From Tubiluchus corallicola (Eukaryota; Animalia; Priapulida): a stretch of 64,000 nucleotides of DNA. The position numbers and the translations under genes are program-made. The notes under the pieces are model-generated. The model was given only the letters and a program-made list of their open reading frames with translations, had not been told where the DNA came from and ran no database searches. Location: assembly GCA_030141605.1 (NCBI GenBank), contig JAQGDQ010000316.1:1-64000 (forward strand). The letters run 5' to 3'. Shown one piece after another: positions 18,801-56,062 of this stretch (position 1 is the stretch's first letter; each line of letters opens with the position of its first letter).

Positions 18801-21800
18801 CTTGATTTACTTGCCAGAAGGCACACTGTCAACTACAGTTGATACTACCTCTAAATTCTAGATGAACACTTATTTAGCTTGACTTAGTTAACAGAACTTG
18901 TTTTCAACTTTAAAGAAGGGAAGGTGTAACAATACCATAGATATGGTTTGTGTAGATCAAAGATCTTGGTGATTGCTTAGCAGTGTTCTGCATTCTAGAC
19001 TGTCATGCTGTTCTGATCTTCTTTGTTTAAGTTCCTAATTAGTTTAATAAATACTACTTTATTATGCACGCATTTGTCTGTTGCTAATATTATTGTAGCG
19101 TGCAACAGACACCACCGCTTTTTGTTTTCGAAGCTACATTCCTCAATTGCACGTGGCGTGTGTAAGTATTATTGCTACTGGCATAGGCATCAGTTAATTT
19201 GCAAATTAAGCATTTTGCAAACAAAGCCCCTCCCCTATGAAAACTTAACGAATCCGAAGCCACTCCCCTATGAAAACTTAACGAATCCGAAGCCCCTCCC
19301 CTATGAAAACTTAACGAATCCGAAGCCACTCCCCTATGAAAACTTAACGAATCCGAAGCCACTCCCCTATGAAAACTTAACGAATCCGAAGCCACTCCCC
19401 TATGAAAACTTAACGAATCCGAAGCCACTCCCCTGTGAAAACTTAAGGAATCCGAAGCCACTCCCCTATGAAAATTTAACGAATCCGAAGCCACTCCCCT
19501 ATGAAAACTTAACGAATCCGAAGCCACTCCCCTATGAAAACTTAACGACTCCGAAGCCACTCCCCTATGAAAACTTAACGAATCCGAAGCCACTCCCCTA
19601 TGAAAACTTAGAACGCGTTGACTTACAGCCTTTTGCTTGAGCAACCTGCGTGTAACGCTAGTCTCCTTTTTAGTGTGAATGTTAATTTCATTACTTTAAT
19701 GCTACGAATTATAACGAATAGTTAACTTTCTATTGTTTTTCTTTTATTATTGAATCATTATTTGGTGAACACTAATGTAATGTAATCTCTACAATTACAC
19801 AGGCTGATGTTATGAAGTCACGCAAATTGATGAAAATAGCTTTAATATCTTCCAACATGGCATACACAAGTAGCTAAGTTGCTTAACCCTTTCAGTCCCA
19901 AATTATTTTTTTAATAAGAAAAAATTTTTTGGCTTGGTACTTTTGTTCAGTATGTCCATCTTGTTTACACATAATAATTATTTTTTTCTACCTGTGCTTG
20001 CGTGCTAAATATAGCCTGTATCCCACGGGACACATTGGGATTCAATGGAAGCATAAAATGTGTTTCATTTTGCAACTGCAACTGCTGATAATTTTTTAAA
20101 GTATTTAAGACATTTAGTACGCATGCTATGCTGATCTGTACAAAGTCGTCTCTAAAGTGCTGTACCTTGCACAGTTTTTTATCCTATGTAGATTTTTTTA
20201 GTTTGCCATTTTATCACTATCTTTAGTCTATTGTTATTGGCTTAAATCAAAATAACTATTAACAGATCAAATAACTGTCAGTTTTAAAATTTTATTAATT
20301 TTAAATGCAGAGAATATTCTCGTGTCCCATGGGATACAACGGGTATGAAAGGGTTAATTTTGATGTTCAGTTAGGTTAATTATCCAAGAAAAATTAAAAT
20401 TGTAAATCATATATTTCCAATATTGAACGTCAACGGCAGGATTTTTTTGCAAGCCACAGATAATAGTCATAAATTCACGATAGACTGTGAGCAAGACCTA
20501 GCTGATATATAGGCCACCTCAATGCTTATTATCTTTGAAATCTTGAATTTAAAGTTTTTAATGAAATTCAATTTAACTGCGAAAAACATACATCCAACTT
20601 ACCTCACACTGTTAGCAGAATAGCTGTAGAGGATTTATGGGTCGAGATAAAAACATCAAGAAATAAAGTAACTATACTATTTGGCATCGTGTACAGGCAC
20701 CCCAACAAATCTGTCAGTCACTTTAATGAAGAAATGAAGAAATTCGGCAGGAAGGACAGCTTTTGTTTGCGGGGACATGAATATTAATTTACTTCAACAC
20801 GAAGACATTTCTTCCGTTGCCAACTATATAAATATGTTGTTCTCAAATAGGTTTCATCCTGTTATCACTCAACCAACTCGCATTACTCACAAACCCTAAT
20901 TGATCATATTTATACTAATGAGTTTCAAAATCCCATCACTGCTGACATCATTCAGTAGGAAGTGGCTGACCATCTGCCTATCTCAGCAATTGCTAACTCT
21001 TCCTATGCATGCAAAAGTAAGTCTCAAGTACAAATAAGAGATACTAAATGATTTATTCCTGCGAACTTTCTGAGCGATTTGGGACATTCACTTTCTAATA
21101 TTTTCAATAGTCAACTTAATGTAAATAATACTTTTTCCCACTTCTTGCAATCATTTGAAGCCACACTTAATAAACATGACCCATTTAATCTATTATTTAA
21201 TTATTAGAAATGCTTTTGTAGTATTAATCGTGTTAAAATGTATACTTTTATCGAACTTGAAAATGGGGTAGTATATGAAAAATGATCCTGTCTTCCTTTG
21301 ACAATTATTTCATTATAGATAATTGAAATGGTGATTTGTATCTAAAGAACAATCTGAGAACAACTTTGCTTACCGAGGATGCGCTTTTCTCACACAGTTT
21401 AATAAAGACGTAATCAGCGAAGGTTTTACATACAATTTATCATTTTAATAACCTATGATGTATGTTGTAATGTTGTATTCACATTATTAAAATTTACAGT
21501 ATTATATTAAAACCATTTATATTATTAAATATAGCGTTCCGCGTATTTGGACGTTCATTATTGGTTTAAAATATTGCAAAACAATTTTCGTATAACGCAT
21601 GTAAAAATTGATAATTACACTAAGAAGTTTTTTCATGGTGTGCAAGTTACTAAACATATAGACTTAGCATAACACAAGTTGCATAAAAGTACTAAAAAAT
21701 TCGTTACTTTAGCCACGTATAAAATGTTCTCTTTCTTTTTAACCATTTCTATTAAATTACCGTATTTATTCTAGTATAATGCGCACAACACGTGTATAAC

Positions 21801-24800
21801 GCGCACCACTAATTTTCAATTAAAAATTGGTATAAAATTTTGTTTCACTTTTTCTCGGCTCAGACCAAGCATTGTAAGTGACAAACGTTGTTGAACAACT
21901 CCAGTCTCTAACATTCGTCTCTGGTACAGTGAATTCTCGGCTAGCTGCTCGATTTCCGTGGGCCAGGCACCGTCTGACAAAGTCTGCTGATGACGCAAAT
22001 ATTATTGATTATTTCCTTAGCTACGCCTCACCCCAGCTCTCATTTATAACGCGTACCCAAACTTTGAGTTCTTTTTTAGGTACAAAATTTTGCGCGTTAT
22101 ACTCGAATAAATACGGTAACGTTCAACAGTAACGAAATTTCACTTATTTACGGGCTCATTGGTATCATGTCAAACCTTTACACGTATTGAAAAACATGAA
22201 ACTTACCCGTATCTCAACACACAGTACATTCGAAAACAGAAAACACGTCTAATAAAATAAGAAGCTATACAAGCTGCATCTAAGTAATAGTTCAAAAGGC
22301 TTTATCTTATTATATATTATATTGTATTGTATTGTATTGTATTGTATTGTATTGTATTGTATTGTATTGTATTGTATTGTATTGTATTGTATTGTATTGT
22401 ATTGTATTGTATTGTATTGTATTGTATTGTATTGTATTGTATTGTATTGTATTGTATTGTATTGTATTGTATTGTACTGTACTGTACTGTACTGTACTGT
22501 ACTGTACTGTACTGTATTGCACTGCACTGCACTGCACTGCACTGCACTGCACTGCACTGCACTGCACTGCACTGTACTTGTACTTGTACTATACTATACT
22601 ATACTATACTATACTATACTATACTATACTATACTATACTATACTATACAATACTATACTATACTATACTATACTACTATACTATACTATATTATATTAT
22701 ATTAGTTATTGTATTTTGATTTGATGTTATCTTATTTTCTCATTTTAGGACTGATATTGATACTGAATTTGTTCATTAGTAGAAATGCTGTTATTTTTTT
22801 TATTTTTTACAATACCTGTAAAAGGTAGCAAGCCCGTTTCGTGGTCAAGACAACCGGTTAAATTCGGATTTGGCTCTAGGCTGACCCCAACATAACAGAA
22901 CCACGTGTACCTGCACAAAAAATCAAGTTTAAACAGGTGATCAATAAATTAGCATGTACGATCTTGCAAGTGTACACCAGACTAAGCTACTCAATAGGCT
23001 AAGGTTTAATGCCTGAAGAGAGCCTGTTTTTCTCTTTTTTACTCAATTAAATCTCTTAAAAATGTTAGCTGATTGGATAGCTGAGATTCTCCTGAATAGA
23101 ACAATACCTAATTTGCTATCCTTTAGTTGTGCCAGTACCAGTACTCATACAGTAGCTAAAAAGTCAATAGGTCTTGTAAGACCTATTTTGAATGGTGCGG
23201 TCTTGAAGGAGTTAATGTTACATTAATGCCCATATGCTTAGTATATCACTATTGCAAATAGACTTGCGTTATTACTATCACAAACACATTATATCTCTAT
23301 TGCATATGGACTTACGTTATATTACTGTCACAAGTGCCATTGCTGCCCGAAGAACTAGGTCTACTGACATCTACGTTCAGGAATTCATTAATTGGGCACA
23401 CGTCGGGGTCTCGGGAACGGGACCCATCCAGTTCAATGTTATGCCCCCGTTTCGCATAGCGTATGCTTCCACCATGAATGTGTGGTATCAAATCAGACTT
23501 TGTGATTACAACATAGCACTGAAATAGTCCAAACAAGTATTCACACTATTGAAAACTAATAAATGAATAGATTTGAGCATGATTAATGTCTAGAAAATTT
23601 AAAAACAAGATTATTACAGTAATTTATTAATATTTTACTGATTAGGAATTGAACAGAGGGTAAGTAACAGCCAAGCAAGTGTTAGATATACTGAATGCTC
23701 AGTTGTTCAGAACAACACCTGCCATATTCTTGATCTCTCAGACACACTTCGGCAATCAAGCTACTGAAAATAAACCGAGGTGATGTCCTCTGTTGGCCAA
23801 AAAGTGATCACAAAATGCCTACAGCCAAAGACTTGCAGAAAATGATATTGAAATGACGTAATGGAGATGGTTTTGATGGTGGTATCTATGACGACGGTGG
23901 TGGTCGGCATCTGTGCTGGCAGTAGTGGAAATTATGATGGTGGCAATGAAGTAACTGACAGTAGTAATGCTGATATACAGCTGTTGTGGCTTAATGTTGT
24001 TATAGGTTCATTGATTTCCTTTGTCACTAAGTAAATTTCCCGTTCCTTTACATTTATATTTACTGTATGTAATTCTAGTGTGTAGAACTTGCTTGTTTTA
24101 GTAGGTGAGTAGGACTGCACACCAGAAATGTCACCTAGTTAAAAAAACTTCCTGGTTTAGTGAAGCACTGGCTGTTAAAATGTAATAAGAAAAGCAAAAA
24201 ACTCTTGAACTGCCTTGAAGTTTGGCAAAACAGGTTCATTAGAAGAAGTTATTCGCATCACATCTTTTATCATTGTTATATATTTGGAAAAGTGAAGAAA
24301 GAAGTGGACCATCGTAAAATAAACACATTAAACCAAAAACCTGCTGTACAGTGCTTTTTTCTCACAGTGCAATGTACTACCAAACATTAGTCAAAGTGAC
24401 AGTTTTCTCTCAATGCAATAACAATGCATGTTTGAAGCAATGGGTATAACATACCTTGTCAGAACCCTCCGTTTTGTTCGTCGGTGTCGTTACTGTTGCT
24501 ACGAAGCGAATAATGTAAGTGGCAGGTTGAAGAAGCCATGGTGGTATCGTCAGGTACTTCCGATTTGTAAGCAAGTTATCTGGGAGAGATATCGGACGTT
24601 CCACTGGAGGGAAGAAATTTATTTCGGCGAAATAAAGTTTCCATCTGTACGTTATGGAGGTCTGAGCCGGGCAATCATGATACACAATGGAGGTAACAGA
24701 AAAGCTATTTCGTGGTTTGTATATGGGTGCTACAGAGACATTGTAGCCGGCATTAACAATGCGCACGTCAACGCAACAATTACCACAAGCCCGTACAACG

Positions 24801-27800
24801 TCAAGAGCCAGAGAAGTGAATACGGATTCACCAGTATCAGCAGAGGCATTGACCTTGACAAAGTAATAATTAGGCTGAGCGTACGTATGAAAATACACAT
24901 AAGCTAAATCTGTATCTGATGGACTAATAGCAAATTTCAACTGGTATGAAATTGTGAGTTCTTTAGCAGGAAAGAACAGAGAATGGTTAGTGATGAAAGT
25001 AGATTGATCACCCATGTCCCAAGCAAATGTAACTGCAGGATGAACGTCGTCCACCAGTAAAAGAAAAGGTATGGGTCTTGTGGCACGGTAAAACACGGGA
25101 TCGGCACTCTCTTCCTTCACCAGAGATATCTTTGGCATTATTACTGAAAAATGTCAAAACCATTTAGTAATATTTAATGAAGGGCAATTTTCACAAAACA
25201 AAAGAATGCTGAAACTTGGAAAATTAATGATTAAAACAAAATTAGTCAACAAAATAATGTTCAACACTGTTTTTTAGTGTTCAACACTGTTGTTTAGTGT
25301 TCAACACTGTTGTTTAGTGTTCAACACTGTTGTTTAGTGTTCAACACTGTTGTTTAGTGTTCAACACTGTTGTTTAGTTTTCAACACTGTTGTTTAGTGT
25401 CCAACACTGTTGCTTAGTGTTCAACACTGTTGTTTAGTGTTCAACACTGTTGTTCAGTTTTCAACACTGTTGTTTAGTGTTCAACACTGTTGTTTAGTAT
25501 TCAACACTGTTTCTTAGTTTTCAACACTGTTGTTTAGTGTTCAACACTGTTGTTTAGTGTTCAACACTGTTGTTTAGTATTCAACACTGTTATTTAGTTT
25601 TCAACACTGTTGTTTAGTGTTCAACACTGTTGTTTAGTGTTCAACACTGTTGTTTAGTATTCAACACTGTTGTTTAGTGCTCAACACTGTTGTTTAATTT
25701 TCAACACTGTTGTTTAGTGTTCAACACTGTTTTTCTGTTATTTAGTATTCAACACTGTTGTTTAGTTTTCAACACTGTTGTTTAGTTTTCAACACTGTTG
25801 TTTAGTTTTCAACACTGTTGTTTAGTGTTCAACACTGTTGTTCTGTTATTTAGTAGTCAACACTGTTGTTTAGTGTTCAACACTGTTGTTCTGTTATTTA
25901 GTATTCAACACTGTTGTTTAGTTTTCAACACTGTTGTTTAGTGTTCAACACTGTTGTTCTGTTATTTAGTATTCAACACTGTTGTTTAGTGTTCAACACT
26001 GTTGTTTTGTTTTCAACACTGTTGTTTAGTTTTCAACACTGTTGTTTAGTGTTCAACACTGTTGTTCTGTTATTTAGTAGTCAACACTGTTGTTTAGTGT
26101 TCAACACTGTTGTTCTGTTATTTAGTATTCAACACTGTTGTTTAGTGTTCAACACTGTTGTTTAGTGTTCAACACTGTTGTTCTGTTATTTAGTATTCAA
26201 CACTGTTGTTTAGTGTTCAACACTGTTGTTTAGTTTTCAACACTGTTGTTTAGTGTTCACAACTGTTGTTTAGTGTTCAACACTGTTGTTTAGTTTTCAA
26301 CACTGTTGTTTAGTATTCAACACTGTTGTTTAGTGTTCAACACTGTTGTTTAGTATTCAACACTGTTGTTTGGTGTTCAACACTGTTGTTTAGTTTTCAA
26401 CACTGTTTTTTAGTATTCAACACTGTTGTTTAGTTTTCAACACTGTTGTTTAGTTTTCAACACTGTTGTTTAGTTTTCAACACTGTTGTTTAGTGTTCAA
26501 CACTGTTGTTTAGTGTTCAACACTGTTGTTTAGTTTACAACACTGTTGTTTAGTTTTCAACACTGTTTAGTGTTCAACACTGTTGTTTAGTGTTCAACAC
26601 TGATGTTTAGTTTACAACACTGTTGTTTAGTATTTACTTAACAACAATTTCATGTTTCGAAAAAAGAACAGGCCAACAGAGATTTGCAAAAATGTCGCAA
26701 GGCAATCACACAGTAGCCGCAAAGTTGACGCAACATGCCCAAAAGCATCGCAAAATGTTCGCCAAGTTGTTGCGGGCTCCGGGATTGTTGACGAATGCCG
26801 CGACTAATTTGAGATAAATTACAACGTCTGGAGAATATTACAATTTTAAAAATTTTGCGAATTTTTGTGCAAGTGGCAAGTTTTGCGACTACGGTGACAA
26901 ATTTTAAGGCAATTTTTTTCTGAAATTGTTGAAAAAATGTCCGGAAAAATTTGCGACTTTTTGGCATAGCAGTGAGTTGTGCAACTACACTGACGAATTC
27001 TAAACATTTTAAATTTTACTGGAGAAGTCAGCGACTTTTTTGAGACAATGGCGAACACATGAGAATATTTTGTAACTGCTTGTTGAATGTTTGGAGACTG
27101 TTGAACCAAAAAAAAAAAACAGTCAAAGAAATTTTTGGATAAAAACAGACATCACGAACACATGAAAGCCTGGCTTTCTGATCGTTACGATCATTTATTT
27201 AAAAGTTACAAAGACCCGTACAGGAAAAATGCTCACAAACATCAATGAACTCACGTTTGCAAGTTTTGCTGTCAAAGAAGCAAATAGTTTGGCAACGCAT
27301 AACCGATGGAAATCAAAATAAGGTAAACCAGATGTTGCATGAGTTGACAGAATTTCTAGATGTGAAACTCACAACCTACACAACAGTCTAGTTAAAAAAT
27401 GATTACGTTCACTGAAGAATTCACAAGGATTATAATTATTTTCATCATTACAACTTACATATATCACAGTATGTGCCGTTATAACCCCGATCACAGATGC
27501 AGATCGCTATAGCATCAACGGCAATGCATGTTCCGTGTTCACTGCAAGGGTAGGTCTCACATACAACAGGCACTAAAACGAGTATTATAAAATTAAAACA
27601 AAACCTAATTGTCTCAATTCCCCTTTTTCTGACTGCCTTTTTTCTCGTATTAACTTACAAGCACATTTGTCAACTCGATATGTAAATACTACTTGTACTC
27701 TTTGCATTCAATGTAATGCACTTGTATTGTATTGCAGATTATAGAAGTCTATGCCATGAATTCCACATACAAATCCGTTTGTTGACTTTAACAGCTTAGT

Positions 27801-30800
27801 TTGGAAATGCTCTACAAAACATCTGTTTCTTAAGTAAAAACTAAAATATCAAACAAAATTTTTCACCAGACTAATGAGAATTCAGGCTTGCACTACAATA
27901 GATCTTAACCTGACAGAAATAATTGTTGTGTCTGGAAAATCAAATTTACAATTGTGTCAATAATAATTTAGAATCTAATTAGAATTTCTTGTGAATAAGT
28001 TGCTATGCACAAAGTTTACCCATGCTGCAGTTGCGCCCTATGTAGCCAGCATCACAGGTGCAGGTATAGTTATTTACTTCATCTTTGCATTTACCATTAA
28101 CACAAGGGTTAGGCGAACAATCATCAATATCTATAAAGAAATAAGAAATAACATTTGCTGCTGTCAATACTAATTTAAAATTAAATTAAAATTTATCATG
28201 AACAAGTTGACTAGATGCACAATTGAGCAATGCTGCAGTTGTGCCAGTGCTGATTTAGAATTTAATTAGAATTTCTTGTGAATAAGTTGCTATACACAAA
28301 GTTTACCTATGCTGCAGTTGCGCCCTATGTAGCCAGCATCACAGATGCAGGTATAGTTATTTACTTCATCTTTGCATTTACCATTAACACAAGGGTTAGG
28401 CGAACAATCATCAATATCTATAAAGAAATAAGAAATAACATTTGCTGCTGTCAATACTAATTTAAAATTAAATTAAAATTTATCATGAACAAGTTGACTA
28501 GATGCACAATTGAGCAATACTGCAGTTGTGCCAGTGCTGATTTAGAATTTAATTAGAATTTCTTGTGAATAAGTTGCTATGCACAAAGTTTACCTATGCT
28601 GCAGTTGCGCCCTATGTAGCCAGCATCACAGGTGCAGGTATAGTTATTTACTTCATCTTTGCATTTACCATTAACACAAGGGTTAGGCGAACAATCATCA
28701 ATATCTATAAAGAAATAAGAAATAACATTTGCTGCTGTCAATACTGATTTAGAATTAAATTAAAATTTATCATGAACAAGTTGACTAGATGCACAATAGA
28801 GCAATGCTGCAGTTGTGCCAGTGCTGATTTAGAATTTAATTAGAATTTCTTGTGAATAAGTTGCTATGCACAAAGTTTACCTATGCTGCAGTTGCGCCCT
28901 ATGTAGCCAGCATCACAGGTGCAGGTATAGTTATTTACTTCATCTTTGCATTTACCATTAACGCAAGGGTTAGGCGAACAATCATCAATATCTATAAAGA
29001 AATAAGAAATAACATTTGCTGCTGTCAATACTAACTTAGAATTAAATTAAAATTTATCATGAACAAGTTGACTAGATGCACAATAACTTTACTGCAATTG
29101 ATGATAATGAATCACAGAAAATAAATATTACTTGTGGAGTACCACAGGGATCAACGCTTGGTCCATTATTATTCCTGGTATATGTTAATGACCTACCTTT
29201 GGCATCCAATTTTCATACCAGATCGTTTGCAGATGACACAAACCTGTTTATGGCTGATCAAAATCTTAAAAATCTCGAACATAATGTTAATGCTGAAATT
29301 AATAAAATTGATATTTGGATGAAGGCTAATCAGTTAAGTGTCAACTACAGTAAAACCAAATTTATGCTTATCACTAATCATCAGACTAAAACTGACCTAG
29401 ACAATTTTAAAATTAAAATGGGTAAAAACATCATTCAGCAAACTGATCAAATAAAATATTTAGGTTTGTACATCGATAACAAAATGTCATGGAAACCGCA
29501 TGTAAGCCACATCTCGTACAAAATCAATAAAGTTGTTGGTATAATATCTAAGATTAGGCACTATGTTGATAGAGACACACTTAAAGTTGTATATTATGCT
29601 CTGGTTTATTCTCACCTCCAATACTGTATTCTTACTTTTGCTTTTGCACCAACAACTACTCTCCAACCTCTCATAACTGCTCAAAATAAAATTGTCAAAA
29701 TAATGAATTTTTCCCTAATTAGAGATCATGCAACACCTGCCTACAAAAACTTTCACATTCTAAAGCTTCATGATATCTCTAATCTTGAACTAGGTAATTT
29801 GTTTTCAAATTCAAACACAATCTACTTCCTGAAATATTTTCTGATTATTACGTATACACCTCTGATATACATCGATATAATACAAGATCTGCAAAAAGAA
29901 ATGCTTTTTTTGTAAACAGGTTCGCAACCAATAGAGGCCAATGTTCGCTCAAATACAAAGGTGTTGTACTGTGGAACTCTCTTTCACCAGACCTATTAGC
30001 AGGCACATTGTTTACTTTTCAAAAACAGTACAAAAAACAACTACTAATGAAATATGATTAAGATTGTGAATTATATTTGTCTCCGTGTCTTGGTTTACAG
30101 AAAACAGAAAACTCCTCTTCACATGATAAAATGTTTATTGTTTTGAGTATGTCTTCTAAATGCAACTGTTTCTTTCCAGTATATTCTGCTTGATGTGTAT
30201 GAAATGTGATTGAAGATGCCATAAAATAAGTAAATTTCTCTGACTTGATGATAGACACAGTACAGGTAAATTTATACAATACACTGCATGATATACACTG
30301 CATGCAGGCTAAAATTGGTTTATAAAGTATCTTATAAAATCATACAAATTAGTTGATAAATATATTTACAATTTTTGTTAGGATTGTGCATGTTGTTTGA
30401 TTTTTCTTTTATATACATAATTATTTAAAACTGATAATTTATAACTGCATGTGTTTTTTCGATATTTTTATTTTTATAAAGAAATGTATGACTCATTAGA
30501 AATGTATATATATGTATATATACATATATACATATTTAGTTACTGACTGTGTCCACAGATTGGGATACTGATTATGCATGACCTTTTCCTTTACGATCAT
30601 TTAAGCATGAAATTAAATTGCATGTTATATTATTTTCCTAACTTCATTGAGTCATTAATCTACGTTGATTTTGTTAGTTTTTGGTAACCTTATTTCCGTT
30701 CTCTTTAGTTAAAAATTAGAAATTGCACAATAATAATTTAATACTCGGTTTGGGGTGGCTGCTTCGATAACAAATGTTTTTCGCCACCCCTTCCCTTTTG

Positions 30801-33800
30801 TTTGGCTTTTCTTATTTATATCTATTTTTATTTATATTGTTATTGGGATAAAAAATAAACGATTTGATTTGATTTGATTTAATTGAGCAATGCTGCAGTT
30901 GTGCCAGTGCTGATTTAGAATTTAATTAGAATTTCTTGTGAATAAGTTGCTATGCACAAAGTTTACCTATGCTGCAGTTGCGCCCTATGTAGCCAGCATC
31001 ACAGGTGCAGGTATAGTTATTTATTTCATCTTTGCATTTACCATTAACACAAGGGTTAGGCGAACAATCATCAATATCTATAAAGAAATAAGAAATAACA
31101 TTTGCTGCTGTCAATACTGATTTAGAATTAAATTAAAATTTATCATGAACAAGTTGACTAGATGCACAATTGAGCAATGCTGCAGTTGTGCCAGTGCTGA
31201 TTTAGAATTTAATTAGAATTTCTTGTGAATAAGTTGCTATGCACAAAGTTTACCTATGCTGCAGTTGCGCCCTATGTAGCCAGCATCACAGGTGCAGGTA
31301 TAGTTATTTACTTCATCTTTGCATTTACCATTAACACAAGGGTTAGGCGAACAATCATCAATATCTATAAAGAAATAAGAAATAACATTTGCTGCTGTCA
31401 ATACTGATTTAGAATTAAATTAAAATTTATCATGGACAAGTTGACTAGATGCACAATTGAGCAATGCTGCAGTTGTGCCAGTGCTGATTCAGAATTTAAT
31501 TAGAATTTCTTGTGAATAAGTTGCTATGCACAAAGTTTACCTATGCTGCAGTTGCGCCCAATGTAGCCAACATCACAGGTGCAGGTATAGTTATTTACTT
31601 CATCTTTGCATTTACCATTTACACAAGGGTTAGGCGAACAGTCATCAATATCTATAAAGAAATAAGAAATAACATTTGCTGCTGTCAATACTGATTTAGA
31701 ATTAAGTTAAAATTTATCATGAACAAGTTGACTAGATGCACAATTGAGCAATGCTGCAGTTGTGCCAGTGCTGATTTAGAATTTAATTAGAATTTCTTGT
31801 GAATAAGTTGCTATGCACAAAGTTTACCTATGCTGCAGTTGCGCCCTATGTAGCCAGCATCACAGGTGCAGGTATAGTTATTTACTTCATCTTTGCATTT
31901 ACCATTAACACAAGGGTTAGGCGAACAATCATCAATATCTATAAAGAAGTAAGAAATAACATTTGCTGCTGTCAATACTGATTTAGAATTAAATTAAAAT
32001 TTATCATGAACAAGTTGACTAGATGCATAATTGAGCAATGCTGCAGTTGTGCCAGTGCTGATTTAGAATTTAATTAGAATTTCTTGTGAATAAGTTGCTA
32101 TGCACAAAGTTTGCCTATGCTGCAGTTGCGCCCTATGTAGCCAGCATCACAGGTGCAGGTATAGTTATTTACTTCATCTTTGCATTTACCATTAACACAA
32201 GGGTTAGGCGAACAATCATCAATATCTATAAAGAAATAAGAAATAACATTTGCTGCTGTCAATACTGATTTAGAATTAAATTAAAATTTATCATGAACAA
32301 GTTGACTAGATGCACAATTGAGCAATGCTGCAGTTGTGCCAGTGCTGATTTAGAATTTAATTAGAATTTCTTGTGAATAAGTTGCTATGCACAAAGTTTA
32401 CCTATGCTGCAGTTGCGCCCTATGTAGCCAGCATCACAGGTGCAGGTATAGTTATTTACTTCATCTTTGCATTTACCATTTACACAAGGGTTAGGCGAAC
32501 AGTCATCAATATCTATAAAGAAATAAGAAATAACATTTGCTGCTGTCAATACTGATTTAGAATTAAATTAAAATTTATCATGAACAAGTTGACTAGATGC
32601 ACAATTGAGCAATGCTGCAGTTGTTCCAGTGCTGATTTAGAATTTAATTAGAATTTTTTAAGAATAAGTTGTTATGCACAAAGTTTACCTATGCTGCAGT
32701 TACGCCCAGTATAGCCAGCATCACAGATGCAGGTGTAGTCATTAATTTCAACCTGGCAGCTACCATTAACACAAGGGTTAGGAAAACAATCACCAAGATC
32801 TATAAAATAAGAAAGATTTCCTAGAAAGTGCACCTAGCAAGTTCATCCTTACAGATACCATTAACACAAGGAGAGGAAACACATTCATTAATATCTGTAG
32901 TAGAAACTCAGATTATAAAATGCCATTTAAGGTAAAGCAATCAAGATAAAGATAAATGTTTATTTGTCGTCAGTATGTAATTATATTCGTTCTTGTATTA
33001 ACATTATGCTCTTTAATTCTATCTTGACAAGTACCATATACAGAATAGAGTACATTTGCTCTCGTTTCCCTTCAACGGAAGGAAAGCCGGATAACTGTGT
33101 AAACATTAGTTCAAAAATAAAGTAGTGCTCAAAAATATTTAAAAGTACAACAGTTTTTCTTTAAATCAAAGCTTACATTAAACAATAATTATCTCAGATA
33201 GTTAGATTTTCCGAAACTTTCAAATCCATGCGGCTCAGCAAATCCACTAAAGTGGCAATGGTGTTTTCTCACAATTGCGTACCCGAAAAAGCGGGTTACC
33301 GTGCTAAGCATGATCATGAACTGCAGTGTCCGTCGTAGGGTTTATTTTCATGACACCATATCAGCATCTATGCGAACATGCTTGACACGCAGGAAAGATG
33401 CCCACCATTGCACAAACTGTAGTTAGTTTGTGATGTAAGGAATGGTTACGTTCAGTTGCCGCTAATTAACTTTCCAATGTAATTATTCAAATATTAGAAA
33501 CAATTGCTAATTTTCACAGGCAAGAAAATGAATATTTTGGACAGTAAACTAAAATGAGAATGAGTCTAATCAATTGTTCAGTTTTCCTTTAATTGAAAAT
33601 GTTATAATCAATTAAATGTAGTAAAAGCCTGCAAGAAAAATCGACACAAACTTCAATGGACTAATGCTGAAATGAAGTTTTACTATCCATGCATCTGACG
33701 CATACAGATTGCTACAAAATAACAAACATTGCATAAATTGATAACCCTTTTTCAACACATAAGTCACTAGCTGACACTAGTGCATTTACCAAATTACTTA

Positions 33801-36800
33801 CCACTCTCACAGTTTGTGCCTGTGTAACCCTTACTGCAATTGCATGTATAACCTCCATCGGGTTGAGAAACACATGTTGAGTTATATTCACATGGGCGGA
33901 AATGGCAGGCCTCGGGCACTGGAACAAAATAATGTTTCCAAAATATAAAACTTACGTCCTTTACACACGGCAAAAGTGAACCGTTTTGAAAAGAATTTGG
34001 ATGTTCACCCAGCAGCCCAATACATTTTCACCCAAACCATTTTGAAAGTGTCTTTGATTCATAAATAAATTTCACTTTTACCTCCAATCTGTTGCTGCAC
34101 TGAAGAAGCCAGATTGCAGAATTCTTATGTCATATGATGAAGGCGTTTGTATGACAGATTTACATATTGAATTTCGACAGTTTGATTTAAAGAGCACATC
34201 TATTTTAAACAAGATGTTAACACAAAGAATGCAGTCACACACAAACACACACAGTACATTGTTAGTTCAGCACCTAAAACACATTTTAATAGGGAATCTT
34301 ACGTGAACTGTTTTACAATCTGCATACTAGTTTACACAGACACAAAAATGTATGTTTGTGTATGCTAGTACACTAATTACAGAAGTTGCATCAGTCGACT
34401 TTAGTATAAATTGTTGTATTTGTACACATGGCATTAAATTAAGCATATGATACCACATTATAATTAACATACTCCAATCCAAGTTATGCGGACTATGCTT
34501 CCGATTTTTAAGTCTCATTAATACCCATGAGTGTAATTCTAAGCACAACACAATCATAATAGTTTGGTTTATATGAATTTAACTAACGCTGATAATCATT
34601 ATGTGGGTTTTTTCTGAGTAATACTATGTTGGCGTGGAAAGGGAAAAGACTTATATATATACTAACCCTCTTATTCAATCATTAAAGCACAAGAAAACCC
34701 TTCACTTACATTAAGGTTAAAAAATTCGTCTCGAAATTTTATACCACTTACATACTACGTTTTCACATGCATGGCTTGCATCAGCCGTAACGCTTTATAA
34801 AATGTGTAAATTTAAACTCCTGCGATGACTGTTATGACTGTAGATAACATTGAGTAAAGTTTGAAAAAATAATCAGAGCATTTGTAGCATACATGTTGCT
34901 GATTAATGTAAATTTTTAAATTACTGTATCTTGTCAATAAGATTAAAAATACGTTTTTGGCTAGTGAGTGACGCACCCTAGAGGGTGAGTCAGCGACATT
35001 TTACCTATTGGCACAAACATTTTAAATTATTAGTTTAGATACATAAGTCTTTACAGCAAATAAATGAAATGCTAAGTAATATAGATTTGCATGGAAAGTT
35101 TTTAGGGTCATAATTTAACATTTCCTTTTCTTCCCCTGATTTACGTGTTTTAGTGACGTCATGTAATGGCATTGTCGGAACACTATGGCGGGAGATTTAA
35201 AATGCAAACAAATGAAAATTGCTTTCAACGCGAATACGATATGTGCATAAAATTGCCGTAAAGTAATATAATTTTCAAAGCAATTTTCCTGAAACCTACC
35301 CCCTTTCTTGTCCTTTAAATTTGCATTCTTCATTGGTACATCATTTGGGAACAATATTTTAGCAGTAAAAGTAAAGGCTTCAGGTTGCTCTCTGTTTTCT
35401 TCTCTTTGGAAATTGAATCGGGAAATCCCGGGAACATTTTTCTAATGTACTGAAAGGCATCTAAATCTGAAATTAGCTGGCAACTAACGATGCAATTAAT
35501 TAGTTTGATTACTACTGTGATAGCCAGTGCCTATGAACCATTGCAGTTTATTTTTACAGCCTGTTTTGTAATGTTGAACTTGAAATTCAGCTGGCAGAGC
35601 AAAATAGTACTAATTCTAGGTCTCGGGTTCAACTCCCGACCAATCTACAATTTTTCAGCGTCTCCTTTCTTTCTCCAGCTCATTATCCGCAACGGTTAAT
35701 AATTGCCAAAAATAAACCACATTGGTTCTTAAACACTCTGACAAACGCAGTCGTAATCTAACTTATTAATGACATCCTAACTTGCCAGCTAATTTGAGAA
35801 AAGGCATCTCAATCCTTTGTTTGTTTGTTTTTCTAAATCCTGCCAGTGATGCAGAACTGTCTTTTTAAAAGAAATAATGAAAATGCAGACAGGATCCAAC
35901 CAGGATCTGCAAAATTTTTGCGGTTCGAATCAGATTGCGGATCTAGTATTTAAAATAAGAAATAATGCAGACCACATACAGAACAAAAATTTGACGGATA
36001 GATCTTTTAAGATATTAATTTTCATTAATGTTAGATAACAATGTGGGAGTCATGACAGATTTTTTTTTAGTTTATTATTATCACATTCAGTACAATATAA
36101 TGGCGTTAAATACACAGTGACATGAAAATTATTACGTCATACTGTATTAAATTCTTATGTTTCATACACTATCGTTATTATAAGAGAATAATTGTTCTGC
36201 AGTGGGCTAGAGAAGCAAAGACTTGTATAAGCCCACTGTCATGTGAACCCGATAAAAAAACAATGGATGAGTGAACAAAAAAAAAAGAACTGAGAGAAAG
36301 GTTAGTTTACACAGGAAGAGTAGAAGGATTTGTTAGTGGAAATGGTAGGAAGAAAGATAGTAAAATGTGCTATGTTGACATCAGCTCTAAAGTTTTATCA
36401 ATGATGCCTTGTTTTGCATAATCTCTACTAGGATTGTGGTATGACTGCTGCAGTAGGTGTAGGATACTAGGAAGTGTTGTACTTATCGAGAATCATTGCT
36501 CTGTATTTCTTTTTAAATTTTTGAATTGGCTGAACAGTTTCCAATTCATCATTTATGTCATTCCATCACTTGGCAGTCTTGACAAGCTACCAGGTTGAAT
36601 AATAATCAAAATGAAGACATTAATTAGCTTCATTAATCATTAAATAGACATACTACTACACTAGTAGTAACAGGCCAGCAGCAGTAGTAAAATCTTTTAT
36701 TTGTTATTAAAAATACTAATGTTAAAAAGTACAACAACATCAGAATACGCTAAGTTTTCTCTTACAGTTGTAATTAATCACTGAAATTCAATCCACCAGG

Positions 36801-39800
36801 GGGCAGTAGGGGGCAGTTTCCACTGATTTAAAATATTCTTATTTCTTAAAACCAAGGCTAGGTAAAAATGCCATGTAAGCAGGATCAGGACGGATTGCGG
36901 ATTTGAATTAATTTAGCAGAGCATTGCGGATCCGTGCTAATAGCAAAATGTGGATTTTCACCGGATCTCGGATCTCAAAATTGCAGAACAAATTAGTCAA
37001 TCCCCTCATCGCTGATTCTAACACCATTTACAGTTCAAAACGATTTTTGCCAGTAAACCTGTTCAAAAAGCAAATCCAAAGCGATATTATGAAAGAAGAG
37101 ACTTTCATAGAAAAAGTATTTAAGTAAAACTCACTTTTAAAGTTAAACAAGGCTTTCTTTGCTTCTCTTCTATTTCCGTTTTCCAAGACAACAGCAGCTA
37201 TAGAAATGTTGTACTCCGTTTGCGGCTTCAAATTGTTGATTACGAAGCTGTAATTCATGGGTGACTGTACAACATTGACGTAACCCCGCGGATTCCAATT
37301 TGGCATGTCTTCAGCAAGGTACAGATTGAATTTTTTTATTTTTTTATTCTAAAAATACAAAGTGCTCTGATTATTATTCAGGAAGTGACAAAGTGCTATG
37401 TTAGTTGTACAAATGTATCATATTTGCAACAAGACAGGTGGTGTAGTTTATGTTGCAAACAGGGTCATCTTAGTGCATCAGCACGCTGGGTAGTTGCCCG
37501 AGCCCCCCCCCCCACAAGCGTACAGGCCCTATGCTAGTCTATGTTTGATGTGACTTGCTGTTGATAAATAAATGCAGTAAGTGCCGCTTAATAGGCTCAC
37601 TTTGGGACGGAAGTGTTTTGACACAATTATGGACTGAGTCAATTAGCCAATGGGTTTAGTATATCATACAAATTACACAGGGTTTAGCCTATACAAGTAT
37701 GAATCTTCACTCAAGAATGCACTGCAAGGGCTTTAAATGAATCCTAGAATCTAATTAATGTCAAAAACATCTACGTGCAATTATTTAAGAAGCATAATTA
37801 ATATAACTGAATTAATAAAAACAGAAAAAATCGTTTATTACCATTAAAAATTACAAAAATTCAAGCAAGGTCGGTTGCTTCATTCCTTCGTGAAGAAGTT
37901 GGTTTATGAAATTCTGATAGTGATAAAAACATTGAAAATCTGCACTGCATACTGCACATATTCAAGAAAAATGTGATAAATATGATAAATGTACTCTACC
38001 TACTTACACAAACAAAGCTGTATCCAACATGGCTGTTTCTACGTATATTATTGTGCACAAAAGCGATATAAGGATCGCGTAAAAGCTCTTTGGGTACCCA
38101 TAAGTTCTTATTTTAAGTGCGTGAAGAAAAAAACTGAGTAAATTATGCGGAGCTGTTTGAGTCAACTACACACAGTTTTATGTACATTTTTATAGTCAAT
38201 TAAGCGATTGAGTCCGTGTCTAATAAACAGCGCTTACTGTACTTATGCCGAGCACCTTTGCTTTACACAATCTTTCTGGGGAGCTCTATCGACACATTAT
38301 GTAGAATTTTTTCAAACAAAAGCACACTACATGAACAACAATGACAACATCATAGTCAAGTGACTAATCAAATACATTTCATACCTGTATCGAATAGTCA
38401 TCAAATTTGACCGAAACACTGGACATGTCCAAGTATTCCACGTGCATATTTTGTACGTAAGGATGTGCTGAAAATAAATTTGAAATAAATAAAATAAACA
38501 GCAATAAACGAAACCTGCAGAAATAATTGTCATATGTAATTTTTCAATATTTCATAGAACTAGCTGCATGAAAGTTTCCAACACTGTCAACTCTTGGGTA
38601 TGAAATTCTCATATTCTTGCAGAAGATGCTCTCTTGCTGAAGTTTTATCACTGCAAACCAAAGCAGACACTTTGTATTTGGAAACCAAAATAATCATTTT
38701 GAAGCCTGTAATTCAACCGCATGTTTCAGATGCATCCGCTCATGAACACCGAGTATTTTGAATTTTGGTGCATCATCCTTTGTCATCATCTTTTGAATTT
38801 AAACATCGTCTAAAATACTGAAATCATCTGAAATACTGCGCAAAATGCTAAAAATATCGAACTAAAAATAGTCAAGACAAGCAATAAACCCATAATACCC
38901 ATTTAATGAAACGTTTTCATATCAAAAGCATACGAAAAGAATTCAAATGAACTATTTACATGTACAAACAAAAATATTTTCCATAAAAAATTTTTGTATA
39001 ACGAGCTATTTATACAGATTATACAATGAATTTAAACATTTTAATTTACACATCATTGTGCTGACGTAATCAGTCAGAATGGTCACGTGACCGGCGATTG
39101 TTTCGGGACGCACGAGACTGTAGAAGACGGAGTAGGTGCGTTTTAAAACTCTGTCGCATTTTTTTAATTCTTTGATGTTTAAAACAGTTTATCATAATTG
39201 AATGCATTTTGTGTGTTTACTCTTTCTTTAATACACAATTATAACCTGTCGCTGAAGTGTTTGAATTCGTTTGTTGTTAAAAATTAATTGTCTAATTAGC
39301 ATTCTCTTCACAGTAGCTCTGAAGGTTGTGCGATGAGACAGGGCATCGCAATATTTAACTACATTATTGGAATGGCAAACATCAAAGAAAATAAAACAAA
39401 ATGTTCTGGAAAATTTGGTTAGATTGTTTTAATACGTGACGTGCATAACTCGTGTTTTGTACGTGATTTTTGAAACATCTATTATTATGTAAGATGCAAG
39501 GAAAATTTCTATTATTGCGGCCTTATAATTTAATTTATTTTTTTACCATTTGTCTAAACACAGTAAATCAGTATTTTTAATTATAATGAGTTTGTGATAA
39601 TAAACTTACTGCTACCGCTGCTGTTAATATTGCTGCTGGAAAATTTACCCTTGTGGTGCAGTACATTGTAAAAGAGTCGTTGAGTTAGTGCCGATGAACA
39701 AACACATAATAACAAGTTCAACAAGAATGAGTAATCAGCCGTACATGTATTAAGTTTAGGAAATCTTTGACTTTGAACGAACTTTTTGCTGGACCTGCAT

Positions 39801-42613
39801 TGGATACTCAACATCCGGCCAAATAAGCTATCAACATCCGGTGCAAGCCTAACAAATAGTTTCACAAATATCTGATATAATCTTTGTAACTTAACAAAAA
39901 AAATCAATACCATTGTCGGTTTCATAAACGCTGTAAAATTTCGGTCCGCCACAATAACCAAAGTTTTGCTTGCCAGTAAATGCACCGCCACAGGCGACGT
40001 CACATTTTTCATCTTCCTCATCGTGTTGAAACACGTCCTCCATGCTGCATACACACTGGTTGTACTTCACCAAGACAGCAAACATGAATGCTAAATACAA
40101 AGTAGATGTACGTTCAATTGTTATGAATACATCATGCTAATGCAGAGTAGATAAGCCACAGTATCTGTTAATTCAACTTGTCCACTTATAAATGTGAATA
40201 AGACTAAACTTGTCACGTTTCGCTCCGCCCACATGCAGCAGTTTACTTTTGGGTCTGTTGTTTTGCAGTGTAAAAGTTTTGTACCTAGTAAAAAGGAAAA
40301 ATATCTGGGTCATATTTTATCAGATGACAATAGAGATGATTTAGATATATTACGACAATGTTCAATTTACTATGGTAGAGCATATAAATTACTCATGAAA
40401 TTTACTCACTGTTCAGTTAACGTGAAGAGACAATTGTTTAATGCTTACTGCACTACTTTTTACTGTATGTCCACTTGGAGACATTTTTATTCTTACAATC
40501 TTAGCAAACTCAAGGTTGCATATAATGTATCAACACGGAAGCTGTTTAATTTTTCATATGATACGAGCGCTAGATATATTTCTACTAGACTTAACATTAT
40601 TTAGTTTGATGTTATTCACAGAAAATGTGCATACAGTTTATACATCAGGCTGAATAACAGTGAAAATTTTATATGCAAGAACATTTTAAACAGTGATGCA
40701 AACTTTACTTCTGTAATTAGATGTCATTGGTGTAGTTTGTTATATCGTTAATTGTTATTTGTGTTATTGTTGCGCGTCATGATTTATTGCATTATTTGTA
40801 TTAATTTGTGATGTGTATATGAACTTTGTAAAGTTTGAAATAAAATATTAAATCTAAATCTAAAATCTAAATAATGTATCTGCTAACGTAACTTTGTACT
40901 GATTTCTAATAAGATTGATAATTAAAATAAAAAACAGAAAATAAATTAAAAAACTGGTTGTCATTTCAGCCGATTAGCGACTGCAGTTTTCAGGTGGGAC
41001 ACAAAATATTAAAACTGATTTCTTTACGTTTGTTTTGGGTGTATTCAGTGTTCTGTTGTTTAACATGTTTTATAATTAAATAAAAAATGTATTTATTGAT
41101 CACTTATGTAATCTTATTGTTTTTCTCATGCTCTTCACCTGAGAGTAATCCATTGTGGCGGACTGAACATTGTGCCTCATTTCATTATAATGTTTAAAAA
41201 TTTTATCGGATTTGATTTGCATTGAAAATTTTTTGAAACATAACTTAACATTGCCTTTTCTTCCCCTCATTTACATTTGCGTAAGCGACGTCATGTAATG
41301 GTGACTTCGGAACAGTATTGCGGGAGATTTAAAATGATAGCAAACAAAAATTCCCTTCAACGCAAGCGCTATATATGCATGAAAACGCAGTCAAGTAATA
41401 TTATTTTTTGCGGCGATTTTTCTGAAACCTACTTCTTTTCTTGTCCTTTAAGTTAAAAACGTTAAATTTTCCCTTCTTGATGAAATATCCACCACATGGA
41501 TTTTTGGCATGTAACTGAATGTACAGCTGAACATGCAGACAAAAAGATTGTGTAAATTCACATGCGGCTCCTGACCGTGTTTCTGTCGAACACTCTTTTG
41601 ATAAGCCCTGATGAAATTATCGGAATCTACCTGACGAAAAAATCGTAAAACAATTCTCGGACTACGTATGTGTTTGTAAATACATGTGTTGTTATTTCCT
41701 GCACTCTAGCTTGTCTAACATTTACACGATTTCAACTTCACAGGTTTTTCAACGTCTAGTACATATATATATATATATATATTATCTATACTCTTATATT
41801 AATATTCTTTGTATGGGCTTAATTTATTTATATATAATTTTCGAGGCTACAGCCCGGACGAGGGCACCATTTGCGGCGATCTATATACCAAACGAAAGGT
41901 CTCGATCTAGTGTCGTGCCATTGATGGTTTATTTTTCGAATCGGGCCTACCAGGAGGGGGGGGGCGAAAAACCTCCAAAAATGGCCCTTTTTCGGCCGTT
42001 TTTTGCAAAAGTTATACGACTGAGATGTAGAGAACGGGAACGGGCCGAGGGGGGTGCTGGATATGGATGGATAGCCCGTTCAGCGGTGGGTGTAGTAGGC
42101 ATATTTAGAATTCCCGAGAGGGCCAGGGCGCCCCGCAATGGGCGTTTTCCCGGACCCAACTCGCGATTTTTACGAAATTTTGACCAAACAGCATGCGGGA
42201 AAAACGTTCTAGCGTCGCCCGGTGGGACTGTAGGAAGGAGATATGGGGCTCTTTACAAAGAGGAAGGCCAGGGCTACACGATGATGTGGGCTATATGTTA
42301 GGGCAGGTCCACCGAGAGGAGTACCGACGAGTTAATTAGAGGTTCTATTTTTCGCAATTTTCACTTAGAAAACTGCTGACGCAAAACCATTGTTCTGACG
42401 TCATCCATTGTATTCTGTCTATAATCTTATAGCTTTAATTCAGCAAAAAGCTGCTTTGCAACATACAGTAGGCAGGAGTAAACGCTGCTGGCTTTGCGTT
42501 AGGTAAGTAGGCAGGATGTTACGGGCTTTGTGTTATGAGGACTAGGTAGGATGTTCGCGTGTTATTGCTTATACGTGGTTTTTTACGCAAAATCTTTTGC
42601 GGAGCCTTTGCTA

Positions 42614-42652
<39 letters not shown>

Positions 42653-54600: not shown

Positions 54601-56018
54601 CAACCCTCGCTAAACCGGACTAATTGGGAAGGGGGGGGCCGATTTATCCGATATGCCTATACATGGTCTATATTATACAGAAATAATCACCTTAATATGG
54701 GGTATATACATTGCACTATATACTATAGTGTATATTACTTTAAAATAGTTAGCCTGTGAGGATAAAGAAATTATTGTACAGTTGGTAGGCCGTGTTGTGT
54801 TTAGCGCTCGGGCTCGGACGGAAATCGGTCAGTTTCCTTTACCACGGATGACGTCCATCTTATCTGATATCCGGGGTAACGGGGTCCGGTTTAACGAGGG
54901 TCAACTGTACTGCATTTTAATTGTCACGTTCCTAGCCTTGTGCAACTCACATAGCTAAATATTTTTATAACAGTTAATGTGTTTGTCTGTTGCATCTTAC
55001 TTATTTGTGAATCATTTTGACAAACAAACTTACATTAACTAGCCTTTTAAATATGCAGCACTGAATGCATTGAAGCACTTAATAATTTTAGTTATTTGGA
55101 AGTTGGAATTGTACATTATAATTAGGTGCTGCCATCTATGGGCTGATCCTGTTACATTCTACCAACTGCTCACCCTCAGTATAATTGTATGGTCCAGTGA
55201 ATGTAAACACACTGGTCCTCCCCCTATTTAAAAGTAATGGTTGTTGTGAAGCCTGTGCAAGTCTGCATAAGTCAAGTCCTATACCTATATGTACTGACTG
55301 GTTTTGCTTTCTAGTCACTTTCAGTGTTCAGTGCAGCAGTTGTGCTACTCATGTTTCTGTAGTCTCTCACTCTCAGTGTTCAGTGCAGGACTCTCTCTCA
55401 CTCTCAGTGTTCAGTGCAGCAGTTGTGCTACTCATGTTTCTGTAGTTTTAAAACACTTTTCTGTTGTGTGCAGTGCAAATATGTATTATAGATTTTTTAT
55501 TCCTATTCATACTTCTGTGCCTAAACTCAATAATAACAAAGTGAGTGAACAACAACTTCAAAATGACTTTCGCAATTAATGACACTTTCTGTTTCTGCAT
55601 AAATCGCTTAACTTCAGTACCATTTTATCCTTCAAAATAATTTATCGTATCGTATCATCAAATTTGTATCATTTAACATCCTTACATAGAAAAAACACAG
55701 AAGCACAGTAAATAAGCACAGTAAATGAATAATGCAGAAACATAAAATCACAGGCCATGAGAGACTACTACTTCAGGATGACCAAAGACAAAAAATTCAT
55801 GTTTGAGTAGCTTTATTACGTTTTATCTGTAAGAAAAATCATAACAAAATATAACAGACTAATTTGAGCAAAAAAAGAAACAAAGAAATTAATAATAAAG
55901 TGAGACTGACTAATCAAAATAAACTTACATCATGGCTCTACTACTCTTGACAAATAAATGGTTTAACTGCGGCAAACAAAAACAACAACAACAACAGCAG
56001 CAGCAGCAGCAGCTACAA

Positions 56019-56062
<44 letters not shown>

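What the first reader, a model, noticed from the sequence alone, without database searches (positions are those of the whole stretch)
27965..32805. A satellite that is a gene: homogenised 287-bp exon+intron array of EGF cassettes in a polycystin-1-like receptor
Seen: what looks like a 287-bp tandem repeat is, on the minus strand, ten near-identical 111-nt phase 1-1 exons ([37 protein letters not shown]), each with its own acceptor, donor and 176-nt intron, plus a diverged 11th in register. Introns are about as similar to each other as the exons are. Known: symmetric exons can be gained, lost or skipped without frameshift, and homogenised repeat ectodomains occur in gamete-recognition proteins (abalone VERL, urchin EBR1). 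Inference: an adjustable-length stalk holding the WSC head away from the REJ module, varying by unequal crossover between alleles and/or exon skipping.
Basis: partly seen in the sequence, partly recalled or inferred. Interest (0 to 1): 0.8.

Follow-up and report, generated by a model that had tools for sequence, protein, structure and literature searches.

The report
Recently amplified EGF exon-intron stalk
A polycystin-1-like cell-surface gene, probably of a priapulid worm, carries ten almost identical copies of one small protein-module exon together with its intron, likely copied recently by recombination slippage into a longer predicted stalk; this gene design is already known, and whether the stalk length varies or matters is untested.

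Summary
The array is real. Ten 111-nt phase 1-1 EGF exons (1.7% apart) plus a diverged eleventh lie in an unbroken 26-exon, 1,558-codon frame: five WSC-type modules, FN3, 13 EGF, PKD, REJ. Short-read contigs show it at 11-17 times single-copy depth, and a second sample holds the 287-bp unit junction (19, 48). Equal exon and intron divergence, 13 of 17 variants private to one unit, and unit differences of the order of allelic ones fit a recent multi-step amplification now drifting at least as well as ongoing homogenisation (58). Copy-number variation is plausible, but my depth test failed its control; no RNA covers the gene. The 'adjustable stalk' stays a hypothesis. Exon-plus-intron arrays are known (LPA, DMBT1, SmPoMuc, tenascin-X), and the scan noted EGF versions in a probable mollusc and sea squirt. 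I found no polycystin-family case in print. New member of a known kind; interest 0.3.

The parts
32402..32512 (-). EGF cassette 1 (111 nt, phase 1-1); shares two derived synonymous changes with cassette 4
32115..32225 (-). EGF cassette 2; its donor is GC (AG|GCAAAC), predicted weak
31828..31938 (-). EGF cassette 3
31541..31651 (-). EGF cassette 4 (A>V)
31254..31364 (-). EGF cassette 5
30967..31077 (-). EGF cassette 6 (V>I)
29085..30880 (+). 5'-truncated LINE fragment (RT hit; GATTT-repeat tail; 3-nt target duplication), antisense to the gene, inside one array intron; CR1/L2 clade label is recalled
   Evidence: (RVT_1 E 2e-13)
28881..28991 (-). EGF cassette 7
28594..28704 (-). EGF cassette 8
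28307..28417 (-). EGF cassette 9 (T>I)
28020..28130 (-). EGF cassette 10 (I>M); following intron matches the repeat for only about 54 nt
32689..32799 (-). Diverged eleventh EGF exon (72% aa identity to the cassette, dN/dS 0.37)
32824..32894 (-). Dead 5' half of a further EGF exon (stop after 23 codons); also present in samples S1 and S2
   Evidence: (table 5c)
33802..33918 (-). Unique EGF exon upstream of the array
27459..27572 (-). Unique EGF exon downstream of the array
37135..38467 (-). FN3 module in two exons (38467-38385, 37348-37135)
   Evidence: (fn3 E 3e-4)
39911..63630 (-). Five WSC-type modules (63630-63352, 61059-60715, 54026-53706, 46061-45774, 43365-43234 + 40090-39911); the second has no Pfam hit and is called by its Cys pattern only
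24455..25143 (-). PKD domain and start of REJ module
568..23518 (-). REJ exons (23518-23316, 22910-22816, 2776-2629, 815-568); gene runs on beyond window position 1

Best explanation
The repeat is a row of ten nearly identical EGF exon-plus-intron units in an intact polycystin-1-like gene, likely made recently by several rounds of unequal crossing-over and likely spliced into a predicted glycosylated rod that lengthens the spacer between the WSC/FN3 head and the PKD/REJ module. Shown: the anatomy, the open frame, the variant pattern, the LINE, the GC donor, the relics. Inferred: two neighbouring EGF exons with similar donor and intron starts mispaired and seeded a 287-bp unit; further misalignments (some by several units) raised it to ten or more; because each exon is phase 1-1, gain or loss keeps the frame, so the array is tolerated and now drifts (LINE insertion, a GT>GC donor, private substitutions). 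Each unit would add a calcium-binding-type EGF with two N-glycan sequons. Copy number probably differs between alleles, as a by-product; a selected, regulated length is not needed to explain anything seen.
For: 26 exons join with matching phases, 1,558 codons, 0 stops. Variable-site density is equal in exon and intron (8/111 vs 12/176, Fisher p 1.0). Over a 245-nt register 13 of 17 variable sites are private to one unit, Tajima's D -1.45 (descriptive), 0 four-gamete conflicts, no relation of difference to distance (rho 0.17, p 0.26): star-like, as after expansion. Units 1 and 4 share two derived changes, units 7, 9, 10 another: more than one round. The repeat begins and ends inside the shared intron start. 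Unit difference 1.7% is of the order of window-versus-run differences, 0.27-1.17% on hand-picked unique contigs. Run X5 (same species label, diverged) lists only diverged EGF exons, two of them 236 bp apart, at depth 3-9, none amplified (weak, orthology unproven). Eight non-coding tandem arrays of over 300 bp lie in the same gene's introns. EGF before PKD/REJ is old: P0001 (1 EGF) and Branchiostoma P0006 (2 EGF).
Against: No RNA shows the cassettes in a transcript, so the stalk is predicted only. The array donor GTAAAC has A at +5, seen in 0 of 15 other donors of the gene, so inclusion may be incomplete. Only 4 of 8 exon changes are non-synonymous against 80% expected (p 0.051), all 60 cysteines are intact and dN/dS to the diverged exon is 0.37: some constraint acts on the peptide. 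One haplotype cannot separate recent amplification from older concerted evolution.
Confidence: 0.62

Rival explanations
1. Adjustable stalk: unit number varies between alleles and/or by exon skipping and is under selection because it sets the reach or avidity of the WSC head, for example in gamete, self/non-self or microbe recognition, as with DMBT1.
For: Depth in sample S1 averages about 15 copies (11-17) against 10-11 in the window, and about 4 in sample S2. Second haplotype near the 3' edge differs by 8 substitutions plus a 15-nt gap in 163 nt and 5 in 115 nt, with amino-acid changes in both flanking EGF exons (codon effects read by hand). PKD1-like proteins act in sperm-egg and self recognition in urchins and Ciona (PMC1934368, PMC9265791). 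A GC donor offers a skippable unit.
Against: The S2 deficit is matched by 13 interspersed-repeat bins (median X4/X1 0.38 vs 0.36 for the array, 1.3 for single copy), so it is not evidence of fewer copies; contig depth is no copy number by the tool's own note. Identical units add no recognition diversity. No expression or tissue data. In DMBT1 isoform length came mainly from the allele, not splicing (PMC9038570).
Confidence: 0.18
2. Old array under ongoing concerted evolution: the units have existed for long and are kept alike by recurrent crossover or gene conversion.
For: Shared variants between non-adjacent units; diverged edge units, as expected at array ends (PMC2576457 passage); relics of older EGF duplications in every intron.
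Against: Mostly private variants and no recombinant site pairs; the LINE and the GC donor sit in single units; no amplified counterpart among the listed X5 contigs (weak).
Confidence: 0.12
3. The cassettes are mostly skipped or the allele is decaying: a satellite that happens to contain an exon, with little protein consequence.
For: Atypical +5 donor base in all units, one GC donor (retention would stop after 5 codons), a LINE with four AATAAA on the gene strand, and a dead half-exon next door.
Against: All acceptors and 10 of 11 GT donors are intact, no stop, indel or cysteine loss in 11 exons, frame open over 26 exons.
Confidence: 0.07
4. Assembly artefact: one or two units written out many times.
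For: Near-identical tandem copies are a known assembly hazard; no record spans the array.
Against: Private variants per unit, a LINE with target duplication inside one unit, 11-17x depth in two runs of S1, and a contig that goes back exactly 287 nt in S2 from another study.
Confidence: 0.01

Closest known systems
Human LPA kringle IV type 2 array (PMC11201333, passages read)
   Same: Near-identical exon+intron units coding one disulfide module each, flanked by similar but diverged units.
   Different: LPA unit is about 5.6 kb with two exons and proven copy-number variation; here 287 bp, one exon, variation unproven, membrane-receptor family.
Human DMBT1 SRCR array (PMC9038570, passages read)
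   Same: Tandem domain exons in an extracellular recognition protein; 7-21 copies; the model for a length-tuned ectodomain.
   Different: In DMBT1 the repeats are the ligand-binding units and selection is shown; here the repeats would be a spacer and nothing functional is shown.
Schistosoma mansoni SmPoMuc exon-2 repeats; SOWgp and spider silk as cited there (PMC2576457, passages read)
   Same: Invertebrate gene whose exon and flanking intron repeat in tandem at over 93% identity, explained by unequal crossover and conversion.
   Different: 27-nt mucin exon in a 1-kb unit, multigene family, transcripts known.
Tenascin-X and EMR2 (Hughes 1999; Kwakkenbos 2006; seen only as described or listed in PMC2267704)
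   Same: Homogenised EGF or FN3 repeats, exons and introns together in tenascin-X by its title.
   Different: Vertebrate matrix or adhesion-GPCR proteins; between-species test done there, not here.
PKD1/REJ family: urchin SpREJ1-10, Ciona s-Themis, Priapulus XP_014681545.1, Branchiostoma polycystin-1-like (PMC1934368 part 1 and passages; PMC9265791 passages)
   Same: PKD + REJ module; WSC in SpREJ6, 7, 10 and human PKD1; one EGF in SpREJ1, two in the Branchiostoma protein.
   Different: None of these as described has five WSC-type modules and 13 EGFs, ten of them near-identical.
Ascidian HrVC70 / HaVC80 (PMC9265791, passages read)
   Same: 12-13 tandem EGF modules; one module duplicated between species.
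   Different: Egg-coat ZP proteins with polymorphic repeats; not REJ family.

Membership tests
Polycystin-1 (PKD1/REJ) family | REJ domain (defines the family per PMC1934368) | tested here: met
   Two exons hit Pfam REJ above the cut-off (27.8 and 25.2 bits vs 25; profile 76-116 and 210-291 of 452); Atlas first hit REJ 0.93; best named relative Priapulus 'sperm receptor for egg jelly-like', 32%, E 4.5e-20. Only the first two thirds lie in the window.
Polycystin-1 (PKD1/REJ) family | PKD repeat(s) before REJ | tested here: met
   PKD E 6e-4, 20.1 bits, under the 23.5 cut-off; same position in P0001. Weak but consistent.
Polycystin-1 (PKD1/REJ) family | Signal peptide, GPS, PLAT/LH2, transmembrane segments | not testable with these tools
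   Both gene ends lie outside the window; no genome is held.
Coding exon+intron VNTR (LPA/DMBT1 type) | Head-to-tail near-identical exon+intron units keeping the frame | tested here: met
Coding exon+intron VNTR (LPA/DMBT1 type) | Copy number differs between alleles | tested here: inconclusive
   About 15x in S1, about 4x in S2, but interspersed repeats show the same deficit in S2.
Coding exon+intron VNTR (LPA/DMBT1 type) | Units are included in the mRNA | tested here: inconclusive
   No RNA holder listed; the one possible RNA run has no depth on the cassette or neighbouring exons.
Concerted evolution of intragenic repeats (VERL, tenascin-X type) | Repeats more alike within than between species, array present in both | tested here: inconclusive
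   No orthologous array found; X5 lists diverged, unamplified EGF exons of unproven orthology.
Calcium-binding EGF repeat | N-terminal D-x-D motif and C-x-D/N-x4-Y/F-x-C hydroxylation motif (consensus recalled) | tested here: inconclusive
   Motif present in 10 of 11 cassettes, but Pfam EGF_CA did not hit the cassette at E 0.1.
Mutually exclusive exon cluster (Dscam type) | Diverse alternatives of which only one fits per mRNA | tested here: not met
   Peptides are 97-100% identical and any number keeps the frame.

The most novel reading that the evidence does not exclude
A polycystin-1-family receptor whose EGF stalk is a copy-number-polymorphic VNTR (about 4 to 15 or more units) on old, divergent haplotypes, so that individuals present the WSC head at different heights: a length-tuned recognition or mechanosensing receptor, and the first such case I could find in this family.
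Probability: 0.13. Interest if true: 0.6.

Novelty: new member of a known kind. Interest (0 to 1): 0.3.

Why it matters
As it stands it is a compact, well-preserved snapshot of how symmetric exons are born and lost in one gene: a young ten-unit array, a diverged edge unit, a dead half-exon, an exon relic inside the unit, a LINE time marker and a failing donor within 5 kb. The short 287-bp unit can be genotyped by one PCR or long read, which makes copy-number change and splicing of identical exons easy to test. It also warns that repeat masking would delete ten exons from this gene. It would matter more if length proved polymorphic and functional, because polycystin-1-like proteins act in fertilisation and self-recognition in other invertebrates.

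Tried and rejected
Own genome: none held. Expression: no RNA holder listed; run X6 (RNA is a guess) gave no depth on the cassette or the neighbouring exons; this is no evidence either way. Copy-number variation from contig depth: apparent 15 vs 4 difference set aside because 13 interspersed-repeat bins show the same deficit in X4; the control is itself noisy (in the same-sample pair X2/X1 repeat bins gave 15, single copy 29, array 31). For single-copy depth I hand-picked 7, 9 and 6 of the listed contigs and left out bubble halves and repeat-derived ones; the tables list only about 8 contigs per run. Orthologue with an EGF array: word-indexed searches with the PKD/REJ exon (0 hits among 796 candidates), with P0002 (3 hits among 7,990) and a WSC exon (1 unrelated-looking hit among 10) found no full-length orthologue; 33-nt cassette pattern absent from metagenome contigs. 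Earlier scan notes by place, sequence and polycystin words: none on this locus. Mutually exclusive splicing rejected (identical peptides, frame-neutral). Selection test within the array borderline (p 0.051). No structure prediction was run: a single 36-residue EGF would add nothing to Pfam. Reads were laid on single-unit stretches only, so no record spans the array and the exact count per haplotype stays open.
Full report
Observation. Tandem Repeats Finder reports two 287-bp arrays, 30881-32806 (6.7 copies, 97%) and 27966-29084 (3.9 copies, 98%). On the minus strand these hold ten 111-nt exons and a diverged eleventh, each with an AG acceptor and phase 1-1 ends. Six of the ten peptides are identical and four carry one substitution. 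Mean pairwise difference is 1.72% among the ten exons and 1.77% among nine internal introns. One intron is 1,975 nt rather than 176 because a 1,796-nt LINE fragment (RT hit E 2e-13, GATTT-repeat tail, 3-nt target duplication, antisense to the gene) sits in it and splits the array 7+4. The donor after exon 32225-32115 is GC. A dead half-exon lies just upstream (32894-32824), and every 176-nt intron contains an 80-nt decayed copy of an exon end plus donor (alignment score 103, maximum 64 in 1000 shuffles).

The host gene. I traced 26 exons from 63630 to 568 with matching phases, 1,558 codons and no stop. Pfam gives WSC for 4 of 5 WSC-type modules (the fifth is called by its cysteine pattern), FN3, EGF for the unique exons on each side and for both cassettes tested, PKD (below cut-off) and REJ in two exons (above cut-off). 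The Atlas agrees on REJ (0.93). An exhaustive search with the PKD/REJ exon gave 4 hits at E up to 0.001; the best named one is Priapulus caudatus XP_014681545.1 at 32%. The other strong hit, unnamed P0001, has one EGF directly before PKD and REJ, and a Branchiostoma polycystin-1-like protein has two, so EGF in this position is older than the array. Earlier scan notes call this genome a probable priapulid; my hit agrees but does not prove it. Both ends of the gene lie outside the window, so membrane anchoring is inferred from the family.

Is it real? No genome is held, but four runs from two studies hold the locus or part of it. In sample S1, which may be the source of the window and is not independent, the unit lies at depth 151-168 against 10-14 for unique contigs (X1) and 4,695 against 271-339 (X2), that is 11-17 times. 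In sample S2, from another study and 1.2% different on unique contigs, one contig goes back exactly 287 nt, joining a cassette to an internal-type intron, and the dead half-exon is present too. With private variants in most units and a LINE inside one, an assembly artefact is excluded for practical purposes.

Does copy number vary? S2 gives about 4 times single-copy depth against about 15 in S1. However, 13 bins of interspersed repeats show the same deficit in S2 (median ratio to X1 0.38, array 0.36, single copy 1.3), S2 coverage is patchy (2.8-14.9), and the tool warns that contig depth is no copy number. The control is noisy too (same-sample pair: repeats 15, single copy 29, array 31). The test is inconclusive. 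The S1 mean of about 15 against 10-11 in the window may mean a longer second allele, a collapsed assembly or related exons elsewhere.

History. Across a 245-nt register present in all ten units, 13 of 17 variable sites are private, no pair of sites conflicts, and difference does not track distance. Units 1 and 4 share two changes absent from the diverged exon, and units 7, 9, 10 share another, so amplification took more than one step. The repeat starts and ends within the first 30-60 nt of the intron, which the diverged exon and the last cassette share: the likely seed for mispairing. Variable-site density is the same in exon and intron (8/111, 12/176); 4 of 8 exon changes are non-synonymous (p 0.051 against neutrality), and dN/dS to the diverged exon is 0.37. 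Equal exon and intron identity thus shows youth or turnover, not function. Unit differences (1.7%) are of the order of differences between the window and the runs (0.27-1.17%, probably under-counting heterozygosity). Run X5, with the same species label but next to none of the locus's words, lists only diverged EGF exons at depth 3-9, two of them 236 bp apart; the flanking unique exon is not covered there, so orthology is unproven and this is a weak hint of recent origin. The same gene holds eight non-coding tandem arrays over 300 bp.

Mechanism. Most likely (0.62) a phase-symmetric unit was amplified recently by unequal crossing-over and is tolerated as a spacer. Each unit would add an EGF with six cysteines, two N-glycan sequons and a calcium-binding-type motif (consensus recalled, Pfam EGF_CA not hit). 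Thirteen EGFs would make a rod of some 30-40 nm (recalled 2.5-3 nm per module). Skipping keeps the frame; retention of a 176-nt intron stops after five codons. The array donor has A at +5, unlike all 15 other donors of the gene, and functional GC donors are usually backed by a stronger consensus (PMC3167603, passages), so cassette 2 is the best candidate for skipping. No RNA was available to test this. The selected adjustable stalk (0.18), old concerted evolution (0.12), a mostly skipped array (0.07) and artefact (0.01) are the rivals. In favour of the first, the second haplotype of S1 is 4-5% different in two bubbles at the array's 3' edge and both flanking EGF exons carry amino-acid variants, but these are few sites.

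Comparison. Exon+intron arrays are described for LPA (PMC11201333, passages), DMBT1 (PMC9038570, passages; length set mainly by the allele, not by splicing), SmPoMuc with SOWgp and spider silk cited there (PMC2576457, passages), and tenascin-X and EMR2 (as described or listed in PMC2267704, passages). VERL has 23 ZP-N repeats (PMC8830517, passages); I did not read a source on EBR1 homogenisation. Urchin REJ proteins carry WSC or a single EGF (PMC1934368, part 1 of 4 and passages); Ciona s-Themis are PKD1-like self-sterility genes and HrVC70/HaVC80 have 12/13 EGFs (PMC9265791, passages). Searches for REJ + WSC + EGF + polycystin (5 papers), PKD1-like invertebrate terms (20 of 50 listed), priapulid + polycystin (8) and three on exon-intron arrays showed, from listings only, no near-identical EGF array in a polycystin-family gene; the library lacks most subscription papers and no supplements were opened. 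The scan itself noted EGF exon+intron arrays in a probable mollusc and a probable sea squirt (unchecked).

Verdict. Real, well-defined, a new member of a known kind of gene structure in a family where I found no earlier case. The interesting claim, variable and functional length, is open and cheap to test. Interest 0.3; novel reading probability 0.13, interest 0.6 if true.

Noticed in passing
window 13367-13485 (+): A full-length 5S rRNA match (90 bits) sits alone in the 20-kb intron of the gene; gene or pseudogene not determined.
   Followed up: partly
window about 14300-19100 (+): LTR-retrotransposon in the same intron: aspartyl protease and integrase zinc-finger hits in broken frames, with similar terminal sequences near 14480 and 19100 seen by eye.
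   Followed up: partly
window 50573-52657 (-): Non-LTR element with RT and RNase H, frames separated by one stop, lying between two copies of about 500 bp of intron sequence and beside a 39-bp satellite (47612-49919).
   Followed up: partly
window 2801-3752, 5880-9267, 19224-19610, 22315-22701, 25258-26631, 47612-49919, 58985-59561, 62861-63242: Eight non-coding tandem arrays over 300 bp, 9,755 bp in all, within this one gene's introns.
   Followed up: partly
window 9988-12270 (+): Several low-complexity ORFs (Asp-, Lys-, Gln-rich) on the opposite strand inside the 20-kb intron; no Pfam hit for the two tested; possibly a nested gene or element.
   Followed up: partly
window 27514-27676 and 27848-27962; 33802-33918: Second haplotype in S1 is 4-5% different in two bubbles next to the array; four substitutions fall in the 117-nt upstream EGF exon (two non-synonymous by hand).
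   Followed up: partly
runs X1, X2, X4, X5 laid on window 27995-28144: Other EGF exons 80-90% like the cassette, some with similar intron starts, exist elsewhere in the genome at one to two times single-copy depth: a family of related cassettes.
   Followed up: no
window about 41700-42600, 57350-58950, 59700-60520: A GC-rich interspersed element of about 0.8-0.9 kb occurs in at least four copies, seen by eye.
   Followed up: no
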